IMG/VR virus record: IMGVR_UViG_3300037466_001599
Source: a virus
DNA: 43,984 nt
Direction: 5' to 3' (one strand)
The notes beneath the pieces are model-generated. The model was not told the origin of the DNA, did not search any database, and was given only the letters and a program-made list of their open reading frames with translations. Positions 1-43,984 of this stretch are shown here, one piece after another. Made by a program: the position numbers and the translations under genes. How positions within the stretch are numbered: the stretch's first letter is position 1; every line of letters begins with the position of its first letter.

Positions 1-127
1 GGAGCGACCTCGCCTCCTGCAAGCTCACCGTCACCCAGCAGTCGGACGCGCTCAAGGCCCAGAACGACGCCATCACCCAGCTCCAGACCGACGCAGAGCA
101 GAGAGCCAAGGCCGCCGACGAAGCCCT
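1..127. repeat. Terminal direct repeat, left copy (identical to 43858..43984); most likely a circular-assembly overlap
   Basis: Read directly: ggagcgacctcgcctcctgcaagctcacc...gccgacgaagccct occurs at both ends of the window, 127 nt, no mismatch seen. Confidence 0.9.
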
Positions 128-263
128 TCGTAAAGCCCAGCAGGACGCCAGGCGCTACAAGGACCGCGCCGAACAGATCGCCAGGGCCAAGCCGAAGTCG
201 GACGATCTCTGCAAGGCCGCCGACCAGCTCATCACCGAAACCCTGTCTGGAGAGCGCCAATGA
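1..263 (+). CDS. i-spanin (Rz-like), 3' portion. The ORF starts at 43695 and continues across the circular junction.
   Basis: Frame from ATG 43695 continues through the repeat to TGA 261-263. It has an N-terminal TM (LYASLAAAAVVLAVLAGLYMWG) and a coiled, charged periplasmic part. The stop overlaps the ATG of a lipoprotein ORF (ATGA). Confidence 0.6.
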   Translation, partial: SDLASCKLTVTQQSDALKAQNDAITQLQTDAEQRAKAADEALRKAQQDARRYKDRAEQIARAKPKSDDLCKAADQLITETLSGERQ

Positions 264-514
264 GAGTCGTGGTCATCCTCTCCGCTCTCCTGCTGGCCTC
301 CTGCGCCACCAAGGAACGGATCGTGGTTCAGAAGGTGAGCGTCCCTGTCGGCGTTCCCTGCAAGGTCAAGATCCCCGATGCGCCGCCCTATGCGGTCGAT
401 GACCTCGACCTCAACGCCAGCATCTTCGACAAGGCCAAGGCGCTGCTGGCCGAACGGGAACAGCGCAAGGCCCGCGAGGCCGAACTGGAGGCCGCCGCCC
501 GCTCGTGCAGCTAG
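260..514 (+). CDS. o-spanin (Rz1-like outer-membrane lipoprotein)
   Basis: Signal peptide with lipobox MRVVVILSALLLAS-C. Small, Pro-rich mature part. ATGA-coupled to the preceding Rz-like ORF. Confidence 0.7.
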   Translation: MRVVVILSALLLASCATKERIVVQKVSVPVGVPCKVKIPDAPPYAVDDLDLNASIFDKAKALLAEREQRKAREAELEAAARSCS

Positions 515-3783: not shown

Positions 3784-4121
3784 GACGGCTTATCCCCTTG
3801 GAGGAGAGAGGGTTCAGGAGTGCGCCCGGGGCCGTCCTCTTCTGACGACGGCGGCGACAAGTGTTCGCTGCGCTCCCTTGCAACTGGCTTGTGCGAGTTC
3901 TCGCGGATCAGGATGTGATCCCGCCTCCTGATGCACTCGATGAGAAGCTTCGCCGGGAAGTGCCATACGAAGCCGCACGCCCCGCAGACCTGGGTTGCCG
4001 ACGCAACGTCGTCGTTCGTGAGCGCAGCGTAGGTGTGCGCGCCAAGACGGCACCTCCAAGAGCGCTCGCGCCACGGAAGTTGAGTCCACCTCTCGACGGG
4101 GACGGTGATCGTGTAGCCCAT
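3780..4121 (-). CDS. hypothetical protein (113 aa) with CGACG motif
   Basis: ATG 4121 (MGYTITV) is preceded by GGAAGGGGG. The ORF-track start at 4178 lies inside the conserved leader. Confidence 0.55.
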   Translation of the reverse strand: MGYTITVPVERWTQLPWRERSWRCRLGAHTYAALTNDDVASATQVCGACGFVWHFPAKLLIECIRRRDHILIRENSHKPVARERSEHLSPPSSEEDGPGRTPEPSLLQGDKPS

Positions 4122-4176
4122 CACTCGCCCCCTTCCGACTGACTGTGAGGCGCCGTAGCAGCGCAGTCCGAAGGAC
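4122..4176 (-). promoter_or_regulatory. conserved 5' leader element, copy A (hairpin plus possible SD-sequestering stem)
   Basis: Minus strand GTCCTTCGGAC-N4-CTGCTACGGC-N-CCTCA-N-CAGTCGGA(A/G)GGGG is shared with 5525-5580. Confidence 0.4.
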
Positions 4177-4262
4177 AAGCGGCCGCATTCTCGGCAACGG
4201 AGGCCCTATATTCTTCTCTTTCCCCCCTCCCTTTAGAAGACTCATAGGCTTGAGAAGCGCGG

Positions 4263-4472
4263 CTATTCACCTTCCTTCTCCTTTAGGGCTTGGAGGCCGG
4301 CGTCCTCGGCTCTCTCCTTTTGCTCCAAGAACCAAGCGGTTACGCTACAGCCGAGGGGCGCGCCGGTTGCGTGAGCGTAGGCGTGCAAGGCGTTCATCAC
4401 GTCGTTGTAGCCTTCCCAATCCCCGATGCTTTGGCGGTAGGCCGCCATGTAGCGTTCGTTCTTCCCGCTCAT
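4263..4472 (-). CDS. hypothetical protein (69 aa)
   Basis: ATG 4472 is preceded by AAGGAGGAAGC. ATGA overlap with the upstream ORF. Confidence 0.6.
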   Translation of the reverse strand: MSGKNERYMAAYRQSIGDWEGYNDVMNALHAYAHATGAPLGCSVTAWFLEQKERAEDAGLQALKEKEGE

Positions 4473-4684
4473 GCTTCCTCCTTGGGGGGATTTGAGGAGG
4501 GCAGCGGCAAGATCACGACTTGGTTCGTTTTGGCGCACTCCTCACAGATGACGGCCCAATCTCCAACGTGATCAGGAAGAGGATGGCCCCACTGATCTAT
4601 CCGCCCGTCGTAATTCAAGTTGGCGTCGTAAAAGGCTTTGGCGTTGCAAAGGTCGCAGAGGCGATAGTCGGCGGCAGCCATCAC
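4469..4684 (-). CDS. small zinc-ribbon-like protein (71 aa)
   Basis: CDLC ... CEEC pairs. Coupled to neighbours. Confidence 0.65.
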   Translation of the reverse strand: MMAAADYRLCDLCNAKAFYDANLNYDGRIDQWGHPLPDHVGDWAVICEECAKTNQVVILPLPSSNPPKEEA

Positions 4685-5172
4685 TCACCCTCCGCAGAAG
4701 GCTCGGCGTCCGAAGTTGCAGGCGAAGCCGCGCATCCGGGTTGGCTCCGGGCGCTCCCCTCCTGAGGATGGGGAGCGGCGGGGAGGTTGAAAAGCCCGAC
4801 CGGTAATGGCATCCACCAGCGGCAATTGCTGGGCGCTGTCTCTTGCCGATCCTTCGTGCGGATGAAGCGGCCATCGGGCAGCGACGTGGCTTCAAAAGCC
4901 CAGTAGCCGTTGCTCAGGATGACGTCTGATCCATCCCTCGGAGCCGTCTCTATCGGCCTCCACCCGTCTCCCCCTCCTGATTGGGAGAGGAGTTCATCTT
5001 GAGCCGAACTTGCCTGCACGGCTTCGCCGGACTGAGGGTCAGAGGAAGTCGGAAGGGTGGCGCGCGCCGTCTCCCACGCCCACCGGACAACGCTCAGTCC
5101 GTGCTGATCGAGGGTGGCGGTTGGACCCTTGAGGTTGGTGTCAAGGATCGCAGCGGCGAGTGAGAGGTTCAT
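4681..5172 (-). CDS. hypothetical protein with GWRPIETAPRDG motif (163 aa)
   Basis: The W-x-PIETAP-x-DG motif is common in small phage early proteins (DUF551-like). ATGA coupling at both ends. Confidence 0.65.
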   Translation of the reverse strand: MNLSLAAAILDTNLKGPTATLDQHGLSVVRWAWETARATLPTSSDPQSGEAVQASSAQDELLSQSGGGDGWRPIETAPRDGSDVILSNGYWAFEATSLPDGRFIRTKDRQETAPSNCRWWMPLPVGLFNLPAAPHPQEGSARSQPGCAASPATSDAEPSAEGE

Positions 5173-5345
5173 GCGGCCCTCCGCAGCCGGGCGGCTCGGG
5201 ACCGGCCTCGGGCTTTCAGTTCGATGACGCGGCGTTCCTCACGCAGCGGGATCGTGGCTGCTAGAAGCGCCTCGATGCTCTCGACGCGTCGGCGTTCGTC
5301 GTCCGTCAGGAACTCTCGCCAGTCGGCCGACAGGGCCTCGCTCAT
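5169..5345 (-). CDS. hypothetical protein (58 aa)
   Basis: ATG 5345 (MSEALSADW) has GGAGG 6 nt upstream and an ATGA overlap with the upstream ORF. The ORF-track start at 5357 is an alternative. Confidence 0.55.
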   Translation of the reverse strand: MSEALSADWREFLTDDERRRVESIEALLAATIPLREERRVIELKARGRSRAARLRRAA

Positions 5346-5524
5346 TGCGGCCTCCACAGCACGTTGCCGTGCATGTCTTCGATGCGGATGGTTCCGGGGT
5401 TCAGAGCCGCGTGCTCGGCAAGCTGTTCGAAACCCTCGTCCTCGTAGGTGTTGACGACGTAGAAGCCACCCTCGCGAAAGAACACGGTCGGCCGCGTCGG
5501 CGGGTCAGTACGGCGAACGCTCAC
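5342..5524 (-). CDS. hypothetical protein (60 aa)
   Basis: GTG 5524 is preceded by GGAGGGG at about 8 nt. The ATG at 5548 (ORF track) has no SD and lies in the conserved leader. Confidence 0.5.
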   Translation of the reverse strand: MSVRRTDPPTRPTVFFREGGFYVVNTYEDEGFEQLAEHAALNPGTIRIEDMHGNVLWRPQ

Positions 5525-5580
5525 GGGCCGCGCCCCTCCGACTGGCATTGAGGGGCCGTAGCAGTCAGGTCCGAAGGACC
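5525..5580 (-). promoter_or_regulatory. conserved 5' leader element, copy B
   Basis: Paralogue of 4122-4176. CCCCTC could pair with the GAGGGG of the SD. Confidence 0.4.
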
Positions 5581-5623
5581 GACGCCGCTGGGTTGGCTCT
5601 GGGCGGAATCCCTTAGTTCCTCG

Positions 5624-6052
5624 CTATTCGGCATGGACGCCTCCCAGGAGGGAGAGGATGGAGTCGGCTAGATGCAACGCTTCCGGTCGGAACAGTTTTA
5701 GCCGGAAGGGCTCGGCAGTTCTCAGCTCCTTGGCAGCGCGTTGGAGAATGTCAGCAAGCCCCTCCCGGTCAGGGAGAAGAGGGGGGCGGCGGTTCCAGGC
5801 CCAAACAAGCGCGTGCTTCGTCCGGCGCCAGTCCCTATTGATCAAGCCCATCTGCATCGAGGCCCCGCACGCCTTACAGCCAGCCTCCGCGTAGTCCTTG
5901 CCGTTGGGGCGATGGGCGGCACTGCCTCCACAATGCGGACACGGCAGCAGCTCCCCCGTCCCTGCGTCCTCGGGGGTGTGGGGAGAGGAAACTTGGACTG
6001 TTCTTTCTGGATTGCCGGCTACCGCCCTTGCGGGTTTCTCGTTCGCGCTCAT
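5624..6052 (-). CDS. Lar-family restriction-alleviation-like protein with unusual N- and C-terminal extensions
   Basis: CPHCGG ... CKACG ... WAWNRR matches the Lar-family signature (CPFCGG..C..C..AWNRR). The ATG overlaps the tnpB stop (ATGA). Confidence 0.65.
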   Translation of the reverse strand: MSANEKPARAVAGNPERTVQVSSPHTPEDAGTGELLPCPHCGGSAAHRPNGKDYAEAGCKACGASMQMGLINRDWRRTKHALVWAWNRRPPLLPDREGLADILQRAAKELRTAEPFRLKLFRPEALHLADSILSLLGGVHAE

Positions 6053-7236
6053 TGCTGAAGCTCCAGAGTGGTTCCTGCTTCACCGGGCGCCGAAGCGACC
6101 TCCACAGGCATAGACGGCGTGCCTCGCCGCAGGATGTTGATGGCCGCGTTCGTATCGGCGTGGGCCTGGTGGCCGCAGGACCGACAGGAGAAGCGAACGC
6201 CCTCCCGGCTGTCCGCATCCACCACGCCGCACTCCGAGCACGTCCGGCTCGTGTCCTTCGGATCGACGGTCAGCAGGTAGCCGCCGCGATCCTCTAGCTT
6301 GTAGGCCAGCATCTGGGCGAACATGCCCCATCCCTGGTCGAGGATGGCGCGGTTGAGCCCAGCCTTCTGCCTGACGTTCCGGCCGGGGGCCTCAACGGTC
6401 CCTGCGGCCGACGCCGTCATGTTCCGCACCTTCAGATCTTCCAACACGACGACGCCGTGGCTCTTGGCGATCGACGTGCTGGTCTTGTGCAGGAAGTCCT
6501 TGCGGGCGGCGGAAACCCGCGCGTGTAGCCGGGCGACCCGGAGACGTGCCTTCCTGCGGTTGTTGGAACCCTTTTGCTTCCGGGCAAGGGCGCGCTGCGC
6601 CTTGGCTAGCGCCTGAGCAGCCTTCCGGCCCACGTTCGGGCCGACGATTAGTTCGCCGGTCGATAGAGCAGCGAAGACCGTTATGCCACGATCGATCCCG
6701 ACCGACGAAGGCGCAGCGGTTCCCGCTTCTGAATGGTCGGACAAGCACCAGATGCTGGCGTACCATGCGCCCGCTCGGCGGCTGATCGTGATGGAGCGCT
6801 GTTCTCCGACCAATGGCCTGTCCAGGCGCAACGCGATTTCGCCGATCTTTGGGAGTTTGAGCTTCCCGTTTCGGCGACTGGTCCTGCGGATCCGGAATTC
6901 ATTCCCCTTGAGCCGCAGGCTATCGTTGACGCCGCGCCTTCGCGGGCTGGGATAGCCGCCGCCGCGCCAAAAGGAACGGTAAGCGCCGTCCAGGTCGCGG
7001 AGCGCCTGGCCGAGTGAGGTCGCTGGAACGTCGTTGATCCAATCCACCTCGGCGCGGAGGATGGTAACCTCGCGGCTTTGGGTGATGTAGTTGAACGAGC
7101 GCCCACGTCGCCCGAACGTCCGGCGCTGCTCAAGCGCCAGATTGTAGACGTAGCGAACCGCGCCGACCCACGCTGAGAGCCGCGCCTCTTGCTCCGGTGT
7201 CGGATAGAGCCGATAGAGCCGCGCACGAACGGCCAT
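6049..7236 (-). CDS. tnpB: TnpB (IS200/IS605-family OrfB, RNA-guided RuvC nuclease)
   Basis: N-terminus RARLYRLYPTPEQ. RuvC-I GIDRG, RuvC-II VVLEDL, zinc finger CSECG...CRSCG, RuvC-III ADTNAAINI. ATG 7236 is preceded by GGGGAAGGAAG; the ORF-track start at 7269 is less likely. Confidence 0.9.
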   Translation of the reverse strand: MAVRARLYRLYPTPEQEARLSAWVGAVRYVYNLALEQRRTFGRRGRSFNYITQSREVTILRAEVDWINDVPATSLGQALRDLDGAYRSFWRGGGYPSPRRRGVNDSLRLKGNEFRIRRTSRRNGKLKLPKIGEIALRLDRPLVGEQRSITISRRAGAWYASIWCLSDHSEAGTAAPSSVGIDRGITVFAALSTGELIVGPNVGRKAAQALAKAQRALARKQKGSNNRRKARLRVARLHARVSAARKDFLHKTSTSIAKSHGVVVLEDLKVRNMTASAAGTVEAPGRNVRQKAGLNRAILDQGWGMFAQMLAYKLEDRGGYLLTVDPKDTSRTCSECGVVDADSREGVRFSCRSCGHQAHADTNAAINILRRGTPSMPVEVASAPGEAGTTLELQQ

Positions 7237-7265
7237 CTTCCTTCCCCTCTTCTCTGTTCTGGGGT

Positions 7266-8030
7266 TCATGCGGCCTCCGCGAGCATGTGCCCGATGACCT
7301 CAGCCATCGCGGGCGGGTTGCTGTCGCCTAGGGCCTCGATGCGCTCTCGACGCTCGTGAACCCCTTCGGAACGCCAAGCATCCATTCCGAAAGCGGGGAT
7401 GGTATCCGGGTCCCAATCACCTCGGGCAATTGCTGCCCTCTTGGCTCGCTCAATCGCTTGTGGGAGCGCAGCCCTGGCGACCGCCAGTCGCGACAGGCTG
7501 GTGCTGGCAACCACGTAGCGTCGGCGGCGAAGATACGGCGAACCAAGGTCGTGAGCGCCGAACTCAAAGACGGCGACGTGGCGGCCAGTTCGGCAAAGAT
7601 CGTTAGCGACTTGGGCTTCCCACGCCGAAGCTCCGGGGGGCTGCTCCACGACAAACCATTCTGCGCCGGCAGCGAGCCCGCACCGGAGCATGGCGGGCCA
7701 GAGGCTTTCTCCGGTCCGGTATCCGTGAATTGCAGCGGCAACGCTGGTTGCCTGGCAGGGCGGTCCTCCGAAGGCCACGTCCGCGGAGGGAGGACCATCG
7801 AACGTAAGTACGTCATCGTGGATCGGCACTCCCGGGAAGTTCTGGGCCAGACGCTCGCGGCGCCATGGATTGCTCTCACAGAGCGCGACGGTCCGATGTC
7901 CCGCCCGGTGCATCCCAAGGGCGTGACAGCCGACGCAGGAGAAGAGATCGAGCACGCGAAGCTGGCGCGCCGCAGAAGGCTCTGAGCCGCCAGCGCTTAC
8001 GATCTGGCTCCGGGATGAACTACTTCTCAT
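7266..8030 (-). CDS. DNA (cytosine-5) methyltransferase, compact form
   Basis: Motif I LDLFSCVGC, motif IV GGPPCQ, motif X-like GDSNPPAMAEVIG. The N-terminal 20 aa are encoded by the 47-bp repeat. Confidence 0.85.
   Translation of the reverse strand: MRSSSSRSQIVSAGGSEPSAARQLRVLDLFSCVGCHALGMHRAGHRTVALCESNPWRRERLAQNFPGVPIHDDVLTFDGPPSADVAFGGPPCQATSVAAAIHGYRTGESLWPAMLRCGLAAGAEWFVVEQPPGASAWEAQVANDLCRTGRHVAVFEFGAHDLGSPYLRRRRYVVASTSLSRLAVARAALPQAIERAKRAAIARGDWDPDTIPAFGMDAWRSEGVHERRERIEALGDSNPPAMAEVIGHMLAEAA
7971..8017. repeat. 47-bp inverted repeat, left copy
   Basis: cgcagaaggctctgagccgccagcgcttacgatctggctccgggatg is the exact reverse complement of 14145-14191. Confidence 0.9.
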
Positions 8031-8605
8031 CCCCGCCTCGTGTTCTCAAAGCCCCTGGACTTCAGAGGGGTTCGGGAGCCGTGATTCCGGTGGAAGCCGA
8101 ACCGCGCCTCAGCTTCAGATCGCGCCGCGCTGGCCTGTTCGACGGTGTCGAAGTAGCCGAGATGGTGGAGGCGGCCATCCACGCGGATGCGGGCCACATA
8201 TTGCTTGCGCCTGCCGTAGGCGTACTCGTTGACGCCGATCCGGCCCGTTGCGCTTTTGCGGGTTAACCTGCGGTTCTTCGCGTTCTCGGCGCTGGAGACA
8301 TCGCGGAGGTTTCCGATCCGATTGTCGTCGCGCCCCCCGTTGACGTGATCGATCTGTCCCTCAGGCCATTGGCCGTGGACGTACAGCCACGCGAGACGAT
8401 GCGCCGGATAAAGGTGGCCCAGGACCGCGATGGCGCGATAGCCTCTTGGGCCTACGGTCCCGGCGACTAGGCCTGGATATCGACCATTCCAGTTTCGCCA
8501 CTGGTTGTCGCGACCGAAGTGCGCCCTGCCACGCGTGCGCCAAGTAAAAACTCCGCTGTCTGGATCGTAGTCCAGCAGGTCGCGTAGCGTGCCCGCGTCT
8601 ATCAT
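8027..8605 (-). CDS. HNH (HNH_3-type) endonuclease with AP2-like DNA-binding domain; homing-endonuclease-like
   Basis: AHRLAWLYVHGQWPEGQIDHVNGGRDDNRIGNLR, then an AP2-like segment GVNEYAYGRRKQYVARIRVDGRLHHLGYFDTVEQA. ATG 8605 is ATGA-coupled. Confidence 0.8.
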   Translation of the reverse strand: MIDAGTLRDLLDYDPDSGVFTWRTRGRAHFGRDNQWRNWNGRYPGLVAGTVGPRGYRAIAVLGHLYPAHRLAWLYVHGQWPEGQIDHVNGGRDDNRIGNLRDVSSAENAKNRRLTRKSATGRIGVNEYAYGRRKQYVARIRVDGRLHHLGYFDTVEQASAARSEAEARFGFHRNHGSRTPLKSRGFENTRRG

Positions 8606-8973
8606 GGCCGATACCCCCACGGGTTCACATGAGCCGCGATCTTCCGGCCGGACTTGGGCTTGTGGAGCCCAAGGTGTTTGGCGCGGATCTTGTCGGCCTT
8701 GGCTCCGTCGCTGTTCTCGGCGCCCGTCTTCACGCGATGAGCGGGCCGCCACACGACGTGGATGTTCGTCTCGCGGTGCTCTCCGCCGTCCCGCAGGCGC
8801 TTGATGTGGTCGTAGTCGAACTCGCCTGGTCGTAGCTTCTTGCCGGTGATCCCGCACTTGCCGCCGCAGCGGTCGAAGATGCGCAGCTTCACGCGCTTGG
8901 GGATCTCCTGGTCGGGATGGTCGGCGACCCATTCCTCGACAGCGCGGCGGTTCTCTATGCGGATGAGGCTCAC
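8602..8973 (-). CDS. HNH endonuclease
   Basis: CGGKCG ... DYDHIKRLRDGGEHRETNIHVVWRPAH (CxxC, D-H, N, H). Confidence 0.8.
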   Translation of the reverse strand: MSLIRIENRRAVEEWVADHPDQEIPKRVKLRIFDRCGGKCGITGKKLRPGEFDYDHIKRLRDGGEHRETNIHVVWRPAHRVKTGAENSDGAKADKIRAKHLGLHKPKSGRKIAAHVNPWGYRP

Positions 8974-9416
8974 GCGGCCCGCCGGGAGGGGTTCTTGGCC
9001 GCCTCCCGGTCCCTGGCCGCGTCGTCAAAGTGTTCGATCGTCAGGCCTTCGCGGGCGCACCAGGCTAGGATGTACTCGATCAACTGGCTACATTCGCCCA
9101 CGGTCAGCTTTGACGTCCGCTGCCCGAGCGGGAACATGCCGTCGCCGTCCAACGTGGGGATGAACCGCGCTTCGCGGCCGATGGCATGCAGGAAGATGGC
9201 CTTGTAGACCTCCTTGTCAGCCTTCACGCCGTAGTGGACCGGGCGCTGCTTGATGATCTGGTCGATAAGGCCGTGGAGGGCGTCGTTCTGCTCGTCGCTG
9301 CGCTTGGAAGGGCGCAGCTCCAGCGTCCAGCCGCCCTTGCGCACGGCGCTTTCCACGCCCGCGTGGGCCTTGCCTGCGTTAGCCGGCGTCAGTCGGATGG
9401 TATGGCGCTCCATCAC
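8970..9416 (-). CDS. ninB: NinB/Orf-family recombination mediator
   Basis: RSDEQNDALHGLIDQI and PTLDGDGMFPLGQRTSKLTVGECSQLIEYILAW line up with lambda NinB RSLDQNRKLWACLGDV / PNLAGNGFVVIGQSTSRMRVGEFAELLELIQAF. Confidence 0.8.
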   Translation of the reverse strand: MMERHTIRLTPANAGKAHAGVESAVRKGGWTLELRPSKRSDEQNDALHGLIDQIIKQRPVHYGVKADKEVYKAIFLHAIGREARFIPTLDGDGMFPLGQRTSKLTVGECSQLIEYILAWCAREGLTIEHFDDAARDREAAKNPSRRAA

Positions 9417-10219
9417 GCAGCCACGTCACTTCCGCGCCGGGGAAGCTCCGAAGCACGGATGACACCCACCGCTCCGCGAAAGCCGGCATCGAGTTCGGCC
9501 TCCTGCTCGGCGACGTTGGCCTCGCCGTTCAGTTCCTCGCGGCGCTGTTCGATGCGCTGGCGAATGTCTGGGAGCCAGGCCGCCGGCAGGTGTCCGGTGT
9601 TGCGGTCGAAGTTCTTCTCCCAATGGTCCAGCTCGTTCGCCGTGGCGCGGTCGATGAAATTCTTGATCGACTCCCCAAGGCCCTGACGCTTCGCCTCGAA
9701 CGACGACAGCCGGTTGCTGCCGAGAGGTGGCTCGGGGTCGTAGTTGTCGTCGCCGCTGTCGGCCTTGGGCTCGTCGCTGTCGGCGTGAAGGTCGCCCTTG
9801 TGCCAGAGGTCCAGCGCGGCGCCGAAGCGCATGGCGGCATTGCGGAGCGCGTCGCCGATCGTCTCCTTCACGGCGTCGCCGCCCTGCTTGCCGTCCGGAT
9901 GGCCGAAGCCGTAGCGGGACACGCCGCAGACGGTGAGCTTGATCCACATGCCACCGGGCGCCACCGGAAGGCCGTTCCCGACCGGGTCCGCGACGGGCTC
10001 CCAAGTCCAGTGCGGGTCCACGTCCAGCAGGCGATCCGTCAAGGCCGCGTGACCGACGTAATCCAGATGGACGGCGGGCAGGCCGTGATAGCCGCCGCAC
10101 TCGGCGCACTTCCCTTTCGGCGAGTCCTTCTTGTAGGGCTTCGGAAGCTTGCTGATCTGATGGGCAGGGAAGGGCTCGCGCAGCTTGGCGAGCGGTTCAG
10201 TGTTGCTGGTTGTGGGCAT
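9413..10219 (-). CDS. Rad52/Sak-type single-strand annealing protein
   Basis: N-terminus LREPFPAHQISKLP...CAECGGYHG...HLDYVGHAALTDRLLDVDPHWTWEP resembles Rad52-like phage annealases. It sits next to NinB. Motif-level call only. Confidence 0.6.
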   Translation of the reverse strand: MPTTSNTEPLAKLREPFPAHQISKLPKPYKKDSPKGKCAECGGYHGLPAVHLDYVGHAALTDRLLDVDPHWTWEPVADPVGNGLPVAPGGMWIKLTVCGVSRYGFGHPDGKQGGDAVKETIGDALRNAAMRFGAALDLWHKGDLHADSDEPKADSGDDNYDPEPPLGSNRLSSFEAKRQGLGESIKNFIDRATANELDHWEKNFDRNTGHLPAAWLPDIRQRIEQRREELNGEANVAEQEAELDAGFRGAVGVIRASELPRRGSDVAA

Positions 10220-43400: not shown

Positions 43401-43646
43401 TCACTCCGGGTCCAGGGCCGCGCGATAGGCCGAGGCCCGTTCGACATCGCCGAGGCTCTCAGCGATCTGGATCAGCGGCGCCATCAATTCATTGAATGAA
43501 AGCTTCTCCTGCCCGTAGGCCGGGCACCGTTCGGGATATTTCCCGTTCTCGCAGTAGCCGATGCACCAGCACTCGCCTGGTTGTCCAACGCTCGCGCGCA
43601 CCTCAGCGATCCGTCGAGCCACGCTGGCCGCTTTTGTCTCTGACAT
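43401..43646 (-). CDS. hypothetical Cys-containing protein (81 aa)
   Basis: ORF track. CWCIGYCENGKYPERC. Confidence 0.6.
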   Translation of the reverse strand: MSETKAASVARRIAEVRASVGQPGECWCIGYCENGKYPERCPAYGQEKLSFNELMAPLIQIAESLGDVERASAYRAALDPE

Positions 43647-43694
43647 GGCGTCAGACTAGCATCTTCCCCGTTGATTCAAAACAGGTTTTCGCCT

Positions 43695-43984
43695 ATGCTG
43701 AAGGCAATCCTCGGGTGGTTCTCGCCCGTCAAGCTGTACGCCAGCCTCGCGGCGGCTGCGGTCGTGCTCGCGGTCCTCGCCGGGCTCTACATGTGGGGCC
43801 GAAACGCCGGCCGCGAGGCCGAGGCCAAGCGATCCGCCCCGGTGATCGCAGAGCTTCGGAGCGACCTCGCCTCCTGCAAGCTCACCGTCACCCAGCAGTC
43901 GGACGCGCTCAAGGCCCAGAACGACGCCATCACCCAGCTCCAGACCGACGCAGAGCAGAGAGCCAAGGCCGCCGACGAAGCCCT
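43695..43984 (+). CDS. i-spanin (Rz-like), 5' portion; runs off the window end and continues at 128..263
   Basis: ATG 43695, N-terminal TM, frame continuous through the terminal repeat. Confidence 0.6.
   Translation, partial: MLKAILGWFSPVKLYASLAAAAVVLAVLAGLYMWGRNAGREAEAKRSAPVIAELRSDLASCKLTVTQQSDALKAQNDAITQLQTDAEQRAKAADEA
43858..43984. repeat. Terminal direct repeat, right copy
   Basis: Identical to 1..127. Confidence 0.9.

What the first reader, a model, noticed from the sequence alone, without database searches (positions are those of the whole stretch)
5624..8030. Intact TnpB with no tnpA and no free space for transposon ends, locked between a C5-methyltransferase gene and a Lar-like gene
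**Seen in the sequence**
- The TnpB ORF has all RuvC residues (GIDRG, LEDL, ADTNAA) and both CxxC pairs, so it looks catalytically competent.
- No Y1 or serine TnpA is present anywhere in the genome.
- Only 29 nt separate the methyltransferase stop (7266) from the best tnpB start (7236).
- The tnpB stop overlaps the ATG of the Lar-like ORF (ATGA at 6049-6052).
- A canonical IS200/IS605-type element needs a left end upstream. It also needs an omega-RNA scaffold plus right end running about 100-200 nt beyond the tnpB 3' end. Here that space is annotated as the Lar N-terminus.
- Codons 8-23 of the Lar ORF (5984-6031) have much lower third-position GC than the rest of the gene.
- From what I recall of the family, Lar proteins start only a few residues before CPxCGG. 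Here 36 residues precede it.
- Two low-GC purine/pyrimidine patches flank tnpB (5975-6012 and 7237-7262). They share CTGTTCT..GG.

**Inference**
- Either an IS1341-like element inserted precisely into an anti-restriction locus and its right end/omega-RNA is read through as a Lar N-terminal extension.
- Or the phage has fixed TnpB as an RNA-guided nuclease, for example for homing or for attacking competing phage or host DNA.
- Methylase, RNA-guided nuclease and restriction-alleviation genes as neighbours in one operon is unusual.
Basis: partly seen in the sequence, partly recalled or inferred. Interest (0 to 1): 0.75.

Follow-up and report, generated by a model that had tools for sequence, protein, structure and literature searches.

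The report
Phage tnpB–guide RNA module, no left end
A P22-like phage carries an intact RNA-guided nuclease gene (tnpB) with its guide-RNA scaffold but without the transposon's left end or transposase; the module's right end supplies the start codon of the next gene, and related phages carry the same kind of stripped-down module, which suggests a selfish or competitive nuclease rather than a dead insertion.

Summary
A 395-aa TnpB gene (6049-7236, minus strand) has an intact RuvC triad and zinc finger. It sits 29 nt after a C5-methylase stop, and its TGA overlaps the ATG of a Lar-domain ORF. The window is a complete P22-like phage with no TnpA.

New findings:
1. A covariance model built from canonical tnpA-linked relatives hits 6146-6015 (52.9 bits, E~1e-11). 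Covariation is strong, so the omega-RNA scaffold is retained.
2. The scaffold ends at 6015. The next 20 nt (the predicted guide) match the first codons of the Lar-domain gene in a tnpB-less sister phage (L160), which independently confirms the right-end boundary.
3. No left end exists. Homology to L160 runs through the methylase stop, RBS and ATG-GCC, up to tnpB codon 2.
4. Lar residues 1-~13 are encoded by the scaffold. The Lar zinc ribbon is under strong purifying selection.
5. Ten distinct phage contexts carry such operon-embedded tnpB copies with no left end; TnpB dN/dS in seven of them is 0.22-0.30.

Best reading: an immobilised IS200/IS605-derived tnpB–omega-RNA module maintained in phages, probably as a free-standing RNA-guided homing or competition nuclease. 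That activity is inferred, not shown. The TAM is unknown. I rate it a new variant of a known kind.

The parts
7266..8030 (-). Short C5 cytosine DNA methyltransferase (254 aa), the upstream neighbour; not part of the element
   Evidence: PF00145 5.9e-12, profile positions 2-163; TIGR00675. Its 3' end and stop lie in a junction conserved in L160, so the tnpB module did not truncate it.
7231..7274 (-). Conserved phage junction (MTase stop TGA, RBS GGAAGGAAG, ATG-GCC). It provides tnpB's RBS and first two codons and marks the left limit of the window-specific DNA. No left end is present.
   Evidence: 95% identical to L160 4392-4435, where it precedes an unrelated gene. No LE-like sequence anywhere in the window.
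6049..7236 (-). tnpB, 395 aa, RNA-guided endonuclease with an intact RuvC D182/E266/D361 triad and a CxxC...CxxC zinc finger. An alternative upstream ATG at 7269 overlaps the MTase stop.
   Evidence: dN/dS is 0.22-0.30 against six other phage copies.
6015..6146 (-). Omega-RNA scaffold (at least its 3' 132 nt). It overlaps the last 32 tnpB codons, the stop, and Lar codons 1-13. The loop GGCA (~6120) pairs with the tail AGCC (6017-6020), and the scaffold ends ...GGUAGCCGG at 6015.
   Evidence: Covariance model R1, built from 12 canonical relatives, hits at 52.9 bits, E 6e-12 to 2e-11, covering the full model. In the 21-sequence alignment 93% of cells are paired, 18/23 pairs have double changes, and 0/500 shuffles reach this.
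5995..6014 (-). Predicted guide segment of the omega-RNA (CAAUCCAGAAAGAACAGUCC; the first 16 nt are 5999-6014). It equals the DNA flanking the right end and also encodes Lar codons ~13-19.
   Evidence: It lies immediately 3' of the scaffold end. It is homologous to L160 5447-5467, the first codons of the 307-aa Lar-domain ORF: alignment score 32 against a shuffle maximum of 27. It is unique in the window.
5624..6052 (-). Lar-domain ORF (142 aa). Residues 1-~13 are encoded by the scaffold, ~13-20 by the guide/flank, and from residue ~22 (SPHTPED...) it is homologous to the C-terminal part of L160's 307-aa protein. The Lar zinc ribbon is residues 34-89 (5786-5953).
   Evidence: PF14354 2.4e-09. 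blastn 5561-5988 = L160 6005-6417 at 86%. 6 synonymous versus 1 non-synonymous change over 75 codons, dN/dS 0.05. There is no other ATG/GTG/TTG in frame before the zinc ribbon.

Best explanation
The locus is an IS200/IS605-derived tnpB plus omega-RNA module that has no left end and no partner transposase. It is fixed as an ordinary co-directional gene in the early operon of a P22-like phage.

Shown: the nuclease is intact and under purifying selection. The omega-RNA scaffold is conserved with compensatory changes and ends at 6015. The 16-20 nt that follow (the guide) are the flanking DNA, which corresponds to the first codons of the Lar-domain gene in a tnpB-less sister phage. The scaffold's 3' part doubles as the first ~13 codons of the downstream Lar-domain gene, whose start codon overlaps the tnpB stop.

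Inferred: TnpB is translated from the operon mRNA, processes the 3' part of its own transcript into omega-RNA, and cuts DNA that carries a TAM followed by the guide-matching sequence. That would be the tnpB-less allele in co-infecting or resident related phages. Recombinational repair from the tnpB-bearing genome then copies the module (RNA-guided 'intronless' or non-restorative homing), or the cut simply disables a competitor. The phage's own copy would be spared because the scaffold replaces the TAM. The left end and the TnpA-binding right-end hairpin, needed only for transposition, have been lost or eroded.
For: - TnpB identity and catalytic residues.
- Purifying selection across seven phage copies, dN/dS 0.22-0.30 at dS~1.
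- Canonical relatives at 50-57% identity carry a Y1 tnpA or a left end, and their right end stops at ...GGAKGUCAG followed by unrelated flanks.
- The covariance model built from them hits the window at 6146-6015 and all nine other phage copies at 39-70 bits.
- Covariation is strong: 93% paired, 18/23 pairs with double changes, 0/500 shuffles, slid controls ~40%. The pseudoknot-like pair switches from A-U to G-C in the phage clade (GGCA/UGCC in L370, L250, L373).
- The right-end boundary is independently confirmed by homology of the flank to L160 5447-5467.
- The left limit is the L160-conserved junction up to tnpB codon 2, and no LE-like sequence is found.
- No TnpA in the complete phage genome.
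- Ten different phage contexts have the upstream ORF overlapping tnpB or within 29 nt.
- The right-end terminal hairpin is 8 bp in canonical elements but only 3-4 bp in the phage clade.
- L160 carries a site identical to the first 14 nt of the guide.
- The concept of non-restorative homing into phages or plasmids exists in the literature only as theory plus one plasmid experiment (PMC13565253).
Against: - No expression, processing or cleavage data.
- The TAM is undetermined: flanks of canonical left ends give no single motif, and the bases 5' of the L160 site (CCACUCU) cannot be judged.
- L160 differs from the guide by a 1-nt indel after position 14 and one mismatch, and it is the only related target found.
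- L160 is not a simple empty site. About 1 kb of other genes and the N-terminal domain of the Lar-fusion gene also differ.
- The window's pseudoknot tail has one mismatch (AGCC versus the clade's UGCC).
- The single-sequence fold is not unusually stable, z=+1.07.
- The covariation alignment was fitted to the model.
- The phage copies are not one exclusive clade: L375 groups with canonical L168/L169 at 90% bootstrap, and the nine-copy split has only 74% support.
Confidence: 0.55

Rival explanations
1. Dead passenger. An IS200/IS605 element once inserted near the 5' end of the Lar-domain gene, later deletions removed its left end, and tnpB now rides along without any activity that matters to the phage or to itself.
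For: The guide is simply the flanking sequence, as in any IS. The left end is missing, so the element is immobile. The window's pseudoknot has a mismatch. The fold is not thermodynamically unusual. tnpB genes are common phage passengers, with 531 phage records holding homologues.
Against: dN/dS is 0.22-0.30 over dS~1 among phage copies, with the catalytic triad and zinc finger invariant. The scaffold is maintained with compensatory changes. Ten separate phage contexts all lack a left end and are tightly packed in size-constrained genomes. The sequence is identical in at least five samples.
Confidence: 0.2
2. Still a mobile IS1341-type element. A cryptic or very short left end exists, and a host-encoded TnpA mobilises the tnpB unit in trans between slots of phage genomes.
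For: Related tnpB copies occupy different slots in related phages. Canonical relatives with Y1 TnpA exist in the same protein family, so host TnpAs may be available.
Against: In the window, homology to the tnpB-less phage continues to tnpB codon 2, leaving zero bases for a left end. An nhmmer profile of the canonical left end finds nothing in any phage locus, E>=0.4. The right-end hairpin that TnpA would bind is reduced to 3-4 bp. Upstream ORFs overlap the tnpB start in most contexts.
Confidence: 0.08
3. Domesticated effector working with its neighbours. TnpB plus omega-RNA has been recruited for a phage function such as RNA-guided repression (TldR-like), host DNA attack, or anti-restriction together with the methylase and Lar.
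For: Phage-encoded TnpB derivatives with host-directed guides are known (TldR; bioRxiv 10.1101/2023.11.30.569447, PMC13418256). Here the neighbours are a methylase and a Lar-domain gene, and L370 has the same neighbours.
Against: The RuvC triad is intact, unlike TldR. The guide equals the adjacent flank rather than a host gene. Guides differ between copies. Only 2 of 10 contexts have MTase/Lar neighbours, and the order differs between them.
Confidence: 0.07

Closest known systems
IS200/IS605-family tnpB with omega-RNA (reRNA), e.g. ISDra2 TnpB (PDB 8H1J, 8EXA), and tnpB-only IS1341-type elements
   Same: Same protein architecture (HTH_OrfB, OrfB_IS605, zinc-ribbon TNB) with an intact RuvC. An omega-RNA scaffold overlaps the tnpB 3' end and extends past the stop. 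The guide equals the DNA flanking the right end.
   Different: No left end, no TnpA in the replicon, and a shortened right-end terminal hairpin. The RBS and first two codons are borrowed from a phage junction. The right end is translated as the N-terminus of the next gene.
Free-standing homing endonuclease genes of phages (e.g. T4 SegF, Mob, HNH) that act by intronless homing or localized marker exclusion
   Same: A nuclease gene wedged between conserved phage genes with no mobile-element ends. It is found in varying slots in related phages, and its predicted target is the allele lacking the gene (concept from PMC13565253). An HNH_3 gene lies two genes upstream in the same region.
   Different: Target recognition would be by a guide RNA rather than by protein. 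Homing itself is not demonstrated here.
TldR (TnpB-like nuclease-dead repressors) encoded by temperate phages
   Same: A TnpB-derived gene with an adjacent guide RNA, lacking transposon ends, fixed in temperate phage genomes (papers found).
   Different: TldRs have lost RuvC catalysis and carry guides against host promoters. Here catalysis-competent residues are conserved, and the guide is the local flank.

Membership tests
TnpB (RNA-guided endonuclease, IS200/IS605-type) | HTH_OrfB + OrfB_IS605 (RuvC) + zinc-ribbon TNB domain architecture, above curated cut-offs | tested here: met
   PF12323, PF01385 and PF07282 are all above gathering scores. NF040570 scores 290 bits against a cut-off of 100.
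TnpB (RNA-guided endonuclease, IS200/IS605-type) | RuvC catalytic D-E-D triad and CxxC...CxxC present | tested here: met
   D182, E266, D361 and C333/336/351/354 are invariant in A3. Alignment to solved TnpB structures.
TnpB (RNA-guided endonuclease, IS200/IS605-type) | Cognate omega-RNA scaffold overlapping the tnpB 3' end, followed by a guide | tested here: met
   CM R1 hit at 6146-6015, 52.9 bits. Covariation. The flank homologous to L160 starts at 6014. RNA expression was not testable.
TnpB (RNA-guided endonuclease, IS200/IS605-type) | TAM-dependent, guide-dependent DNA cleavage | not testable with these tools
   Needs biochemistry or a plasmid-interference assay. The TAM could not be inferred.
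IS200/IS605 insertion sequence (autonomous or IS1341-type non-autonomous) | Left end with subterminal hairpin upstream of the genes | tested here: not met
   Homology to tnpB-less L160 continues to tnpB codon 2. LE pattern and profile searches are negative, while canonical relatives show a clear left end.
IS200/IS605 insertion sequence (autonomous or IS1341-type non-autonomous) | Right end with a TnpA-recognised hairpin and a defined boundary | tested here: inconclusive
   The boundary is defined at 6015|6014, but the terminal hairpin is reduced from 8 bp to 3-4 bp.
IS200/IS605 insertion sequence (autonomous or IS1341-type non-autonomous) | Y1 (or IS607 serine) TnpA in the element or replicon | tested here: not met
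   tblastn best E is 0.075. No Y1_Tnp or resolvase family among 35 ORFs.
TldR (nuclease-dead TnpB-derived repressor) | Loss of RuvC catalytic residues / C-terminal truncation | tested here: not met
   The triad and zinc finger are intact and invariant.
Lar restriction-alleviation family (downstream ORF) | Lar zinc-ribbon domain above the curated cut-off | tested here: met
   PF14354 scores 37.7 bits against a cut-off of 28.6. TIGR03655 scores 37.5 against 39.6, just below cut-off. Anti-restriction function was not tested.
Free-standing phage homing endonuclease (functional class) | Cleaves the allele lacking the gene and is copied in by recombination; biased inheritance in mixed infection | not testable with these tools
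   Only circumstantial: a target-like site in L160 and varying slots across phages.

The most novel reading that the evidence does not exclude
These phages carry a natural lineage of free-standing, RNA-guided homing endonucleases: tnpB plus omega-RNA that spreads between related phage genomes by guide-directed cleavage of tnpB-less alleles and recombinational copying. No transposase or transposon ends are involved. The right end has been co-opted to supply a coupled start codon, so the insertion is not polar on the downstream gene.
Probability: 0.35. Interest if true: 0.8.

Novelty: new variant of a known kind. Interest (0 to 1): 0.6.

Why it matters
TnpB is the ancestor of Cas12, and its known natural role is to keep a transposon in place after TnpA excision. 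This case is different. A catalytically intact TnpB, with its guide-RNA scaffold conserved, recurs in phage operons with no left end and no transposase. If it is active, it would be a natural example of RNA-guided 'intronless' homing or inter-phage warfare, a role so far only proposed in theory (PMC13565253). It would also represent an intermediate between selfish transposon nuclease and domesticated effector. The locus gives a defined, testable system: a scaffold at 6146-6015, a 20-nt guide, and a sister phage with a near-matching site. It also shows an unusual dual use of sequence, where the scaffold's 3' end is translated as the N-terminus of a selected downstream protein.

Tried and rejected
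- **Rfam scan** of 5000-8500 at E<=10 gave no relevant family.
- **Megablast** of 4000-10000 against GenBank phages gave no match.
- **Genome contigs and viral scans with single-protein patterns** returned only relatives at <=44% identity.
- **The search for homologous proteins with the Lar ORF** returned nothing, not even the query itself, so it is uninformative.
- **Junction and Lar-start DNA patterns** in viral contigs found only L160's own contig.
- **The 15-mer GGTGAAGCAGGAACC scan** gave mostly random hits and no close relatives.
- **A scaffold remnant in L160 upstream of the target-like site** was considered and rejected as chance: global score 25 against a shuffle mean of 24, local p~0.014.
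- **L370 flanks as an empty-site comparator** showed no homology to the window or L160.
- **TAM inference from canonical left-end flanks** gave no consistent motif.
- **Guide-pattern scan of IMG/VR** returned only unrelated low-GC phages besides L160.
- **Single-sequence MFE** is not informative, z=+1.07.
- **The P0018 (Phenylobacterium) context** is not on record.
- **A single exclusive phage clade** is rejected, because L375 groups with canonical L168/L169.
Full report
**1. The observation**

The minus strand of 5624-8030 carries three tightly packed ORFs.
- A 254-aa C5-methyltransferase at 7266-8030 (PF00145).
- A TnpB gene at 6049-7269. Its likely start is ATG 7236, behind a GGAAGGAAG ribosome-binding site, giving 395 aa as in the public gene call P0001.
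- A 142-aa ORF at 5624-6052 whose residues 34-89 match the Lar zinc-ribbon family (PF14354).

The gap between the methylase stop and ATG 7236 is 29 nt. The tnpB TGA overlaps the ATG of the Lar ORF (ATGA).

TnpB matches NF040570 (guided_TnpB) at 2.9e-86 and the ISDra2 TnpB structures 8H1J/8EXA at 4.6e-43. D182, E266, D361 and the four zinc-finger cysteines are invariant in a 30-member alignment.

The window is a complete, circularly permuted P22-like phage genome with P22 portal and coat proteins, terminase, NinB, RusA and lysozyme. None of its 35 larger ORFs hits a Y1 or serine transposase family. tblastn with four Y1 TnpAs taken from relatives finds nothing.

The low GC3 of Lar codons 8-23 is real: 0.38 against 0.74. 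The claimed similarity of the two low-GC patches is at chance level. The factual part of the finding is therefore confirmed.

**2. A tnpB-less sister phage defines what is foreign**

IMG/VR contig L160 is a related phage without tnpB. BLAST shows a mosaic relationship in which short, nearly identical junction sequences of 30-66 nt (stop, RBS, start) flank non-homologous genes.
- Upstream, window 7231-7274 is 95% identical to L160 4392-4435. This stretch holds the methylase stop, the RBS and ATG-GCC. Similarity ends exactly after tnpB codon 2.
- Downstream, window 5561-5988 is 86% identical to L160 6005-6417. This is the C-terminal Lar-domain part of a 307-aa L160 protein.

The window-specific DNA is thus tnpB from codon 3 plus about 60 nt beyond its stop. 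Nothing upstream could serve as a left end.

**3. Canonical relatives give the omega-RNA and the right-end boundary**

A search of 5.8 billion proteins found thousands of homologues. Relatives at 50-57% identity from metagenomes (L168-L179, L246) are classical IS200/IS605 elements.
- Several have a divergent Y1 tnpA with the HxH motif and the SPSYFAASCGG tyrosine motif.
- They have a recognisable left end: GCCCGCAAGC, then a stem, GTTCAGG, then the return stem.
- In all of them conservation continues past the tnpB stop through two hairpins and stops abruptly at ...GGAKGUCAG. Unrelated DNA follows. The near-identical elements L174 and L246 have different flanks at that point.

RNAalifold on twelve 150-nt scaffolds predicts an 8-bp terminal hairpin. 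It also predicts a long-range pairing of a hairpin loop (GACA) with UGUC two bases before the boundary.

A covariance model built from this alignment (R1) hits the window once, at 6146-6015 on the minus strand. The score is 52.9 bits, E is 6e-12 to 2e-11, and the whole model is covered. It also hits every phage-borne copy examined, at 39-70 bits.

On the 21-sequence model alignment:
- 93% of cells are paired.
- 18 of 23 pairs show changes on both sides.
- No shuffle out of 500 reaches the observed values.
- Sliding the partners drops pairing to about 40%.

The long-range pair co-varies between groups. It is GACA/UGUC or AACA/UGUU in canonical elements. In phage copies it is GGCA/UGCC (L370, L250, L373), GGUA/UGCC (L375) and GGCU/AGUC (L248). 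The window has GGCA/AGCC, which is three of four pairs.

Caveats: the alignment was fitted to the model, and the single-sequence fold is not unusually stable, z = +1.07. No Rfam family matched.

**4. Independent confirmation of the boundary, and the guide**

The model places the scaffold end at 6015 (...GGUAGCCGG). The next bases, CAATCCAGAAAGAACAGTCCA (6014-5994), align with L160 5447-5467 (CAATCCAGAAAGAAACAGCCA). The score is 32, against a maximum of 27 in 200 shuffles (mean 19.2, SD 1.7). That L160 sequence forms codons 6-12 of the 307-aa Lar-domain ORF, so the match is syntenic.

Two independent lines therefore agree that the right end lies at 6015|6014. Under the established TnpB model, the 16-20 nt that follow would be the guide.

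The guide occurs only once in the window. In IMG/VR the only related match is L160 itself. L160 matches the first 14 guide positions, then has a 1-nt insertion and one mismatch.

**5. Consequence for the Lar gene**

Relative to L160, the window's Lar-domain gene lacks the N-terminal ~170 codons, which have no Pfam family. The window also lacks about 1 kb holding a Dam-like methylase and small ORFs.

The retained zinc-ribbon part is under strong purifying selection between the two phages: 6 synonymous against 1 non-synonymous change in 75 codons, dN/dS about 0.05. It is therefore presumably expressed.

The only ATG, GTG or TTG in frame upstream of the zinc ribbon is the ATG at 6052, which overlaps the tnpB stop. 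So Lar residues 1-~13 are encoded by the omega-RNA scaffold and residues ~13-20 by the guide/flank.

In L370 and L371 an ATG overlapping the tnpB stop also opens an ORF through the scaffold. In L166 a GTG at the same place is in frame with the next gene. I regard this coupling as a lead, not a result.

**6. The stripped-down state recurs**

I examined contexts for ten different phage-borne members at 61-74% identity: the window, L166, L248, L249, L250, L370, L371, L373, L374 and L375.
- All are co-directional with phage early genes. NinB, Ead/Ea22, HNH and integrase genes lie nearby.
- In each, the upstream ORF overlaps the tnpB start or lies within 29 nt.
- None has a tnpA.
- A profile of the canonical left end finds nothing in the eight tested: L166, L248-L250, L370, L371, the window and L160.
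- In 7 of 10 the next ORF abuts or overlaps the tnpB stop.
- P0001's contigs from five or more samples are 100% identical. P0023's 18 contigs are all one phage context, not multiple genomic copies.

The slots differ between phages. Only the window and L370 have methylase and Lar neighbours, and in L370 tnpB follows the Lar-domain gene. This argues against a functional methylase-TnpB-Lar unit.

TnpB dN/dS among seven of these copies is 0.22-0.30 at dS of about 1.

The right-end terminal hairpin is similar to the left-end hairpin in canonical elements, and is presumably the TnpA-binding element. It is 8 bp there but only 3-4 bp in the phage copies.

In a neighbour-joining tree, nine of the ten phage copies fall on one side of a split (74% bootstrap). 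L375 groups with canonical L168/L169 (90%). Loss of the left end and phage embedding may therefore have happened more than once.

**7. Interpretation**

Shown: this is an IS200/IS605-derived tnpB-omega-RNA module with a defined right end, no left end and no transposase. It is embedded in a phage operon, is under purifying selection, and has a right end that doubles as the 5' coding region of the next gene.

Inferred, from the established biology of TnpB (Karvelis 2021, PMC8612924; self-processing of the mRNA into omega-RNA, PMC10278001; homing role, PMC10690162): TnpB made from the operon transcript binds the 3' part of its own mRNA and can cut DNA with a TAM followed by the guide-matching sequence.

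Cleavage followed by recombinational repair from the tnpB-bearing genome would copy the module. That would be an RNA-guided version of the intronless homing and marker exclusion known for free-standing phage homing endonucleases.

A 2026 review treats such 'non-restorative homing' into phages or plasmids as a theoretical possibility with one plasmid experiment (PMC13565253). The held literature has no description of a catalytically intact phage TnpB lineage without a left end.

The 30-66-nt conserved junctions are of a length that phage single-strand-annealing recombinases are known to use. That is my own knowledge and was not tested here.

**8. Rivals**

- A dead passenger (confidence about 0.2). 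Disfavoured by selection on both protein and RNA and by recurrence.
- Trans-mobilisation by a host TnpA through a cryptic left end (about 0.08). Disfavoured by zero available bases and negative left-end searches.
- A TldR-like or neighbour-linked domesticated function (about 0.07). Disfavoured by intact catalytic residues, a guide that equals the local flank, and variable neighbours.

**9. Limits**

- No RNA, protein or cleavage data.
- TAM unknown.
- Only one tnpB-less comparator, and it is not a simple empty site.
- The window's pseudoknot has one mismatch.
- Covariation was counted on a model-fitted alignment.
- Only 10 of thousands of homologues were sampled for context.

**10. Verdict**

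The second alternative is the best current explanation but is unproven.

This is a new variant of a known kind (TnpB/omega-RNA). Interest is 0.6, because it offers a concrete natural candidate for transposase-independent, RNA-guided homing in phages.

Noticed in passing
window 8026-8077, 7231-7274, 4932-4997, 4738-4780, 4469-4502, 4267-4298 (vs L160): Near-identical 30-66-nt junction sequences (stop + RBS + start) are shared with phage L160 while the genes between them are non-homologous. This looks like module exchange at conserved gene boundaries. The RBS-ATGGCC junction occurs twice in the window (7250-7231 and ~4220-4200), and the L160 gene that follows its methylase sits at window 4220-4131.
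   Followed up: partly
window 8027-~8605 (-), within the ORF listed as 8027-9028: An HNH_3 endonuclease gene (PF13392, 2.1e-15) lies directly upstream of the methylase, so two different nuclease genes of selfish-element type sit within 3 kb.
   Followed up: no
window 1-514 and 43635-43984: Both window ends map to adjacent or overlapping positions of L160 (11391-10878 and 11615-11265). This suggests the window is a circularly permuted, essentially complete P22-like genome.
   Followed up: no
L370 4046-4065: In L370 the predicted guide contains a perfect Shine-Dalgarno plus ATG (GGAGGAGAAGTGATG) of the downstream gene, so that copy sits immediately upstream of a gene start.
   Followed up: no
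L248 4316-4418, L249 5510-5591, L250 4601-4654: In these three phage copies the tnpB reading frame continues about 17-35 codons past the model-predicted scaffold end. Either the usual stop was lost, or the scaffold end is misplaced there.
   Followed up: no
window 5529-5579 and 4126-4176: An internal 51-nt direct repeat (80% identity) lies in two intergenic or gene-boundary regions of the early operon.
   Followed up: no
window 5624-5760 vs L160 6220-6354: The C-terminal ~45 codons of the Lar-domain protein are far more diverged (dN/dS ~0.57, dS ~1) than the zinc ribbon. The last 15 codons are again nearly identical, which suggests a small internal mosaic patch.
   Followed up: partly
L160 4513-5241: L160 carries a 242-aa ORF with a DPPY-type motif (FIDPPYGDKG), probably an N6-adenine methyltransferase, in the place where the window has tnpB. 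It has no Pfam hit at E<=0.001.
   Followed up: no
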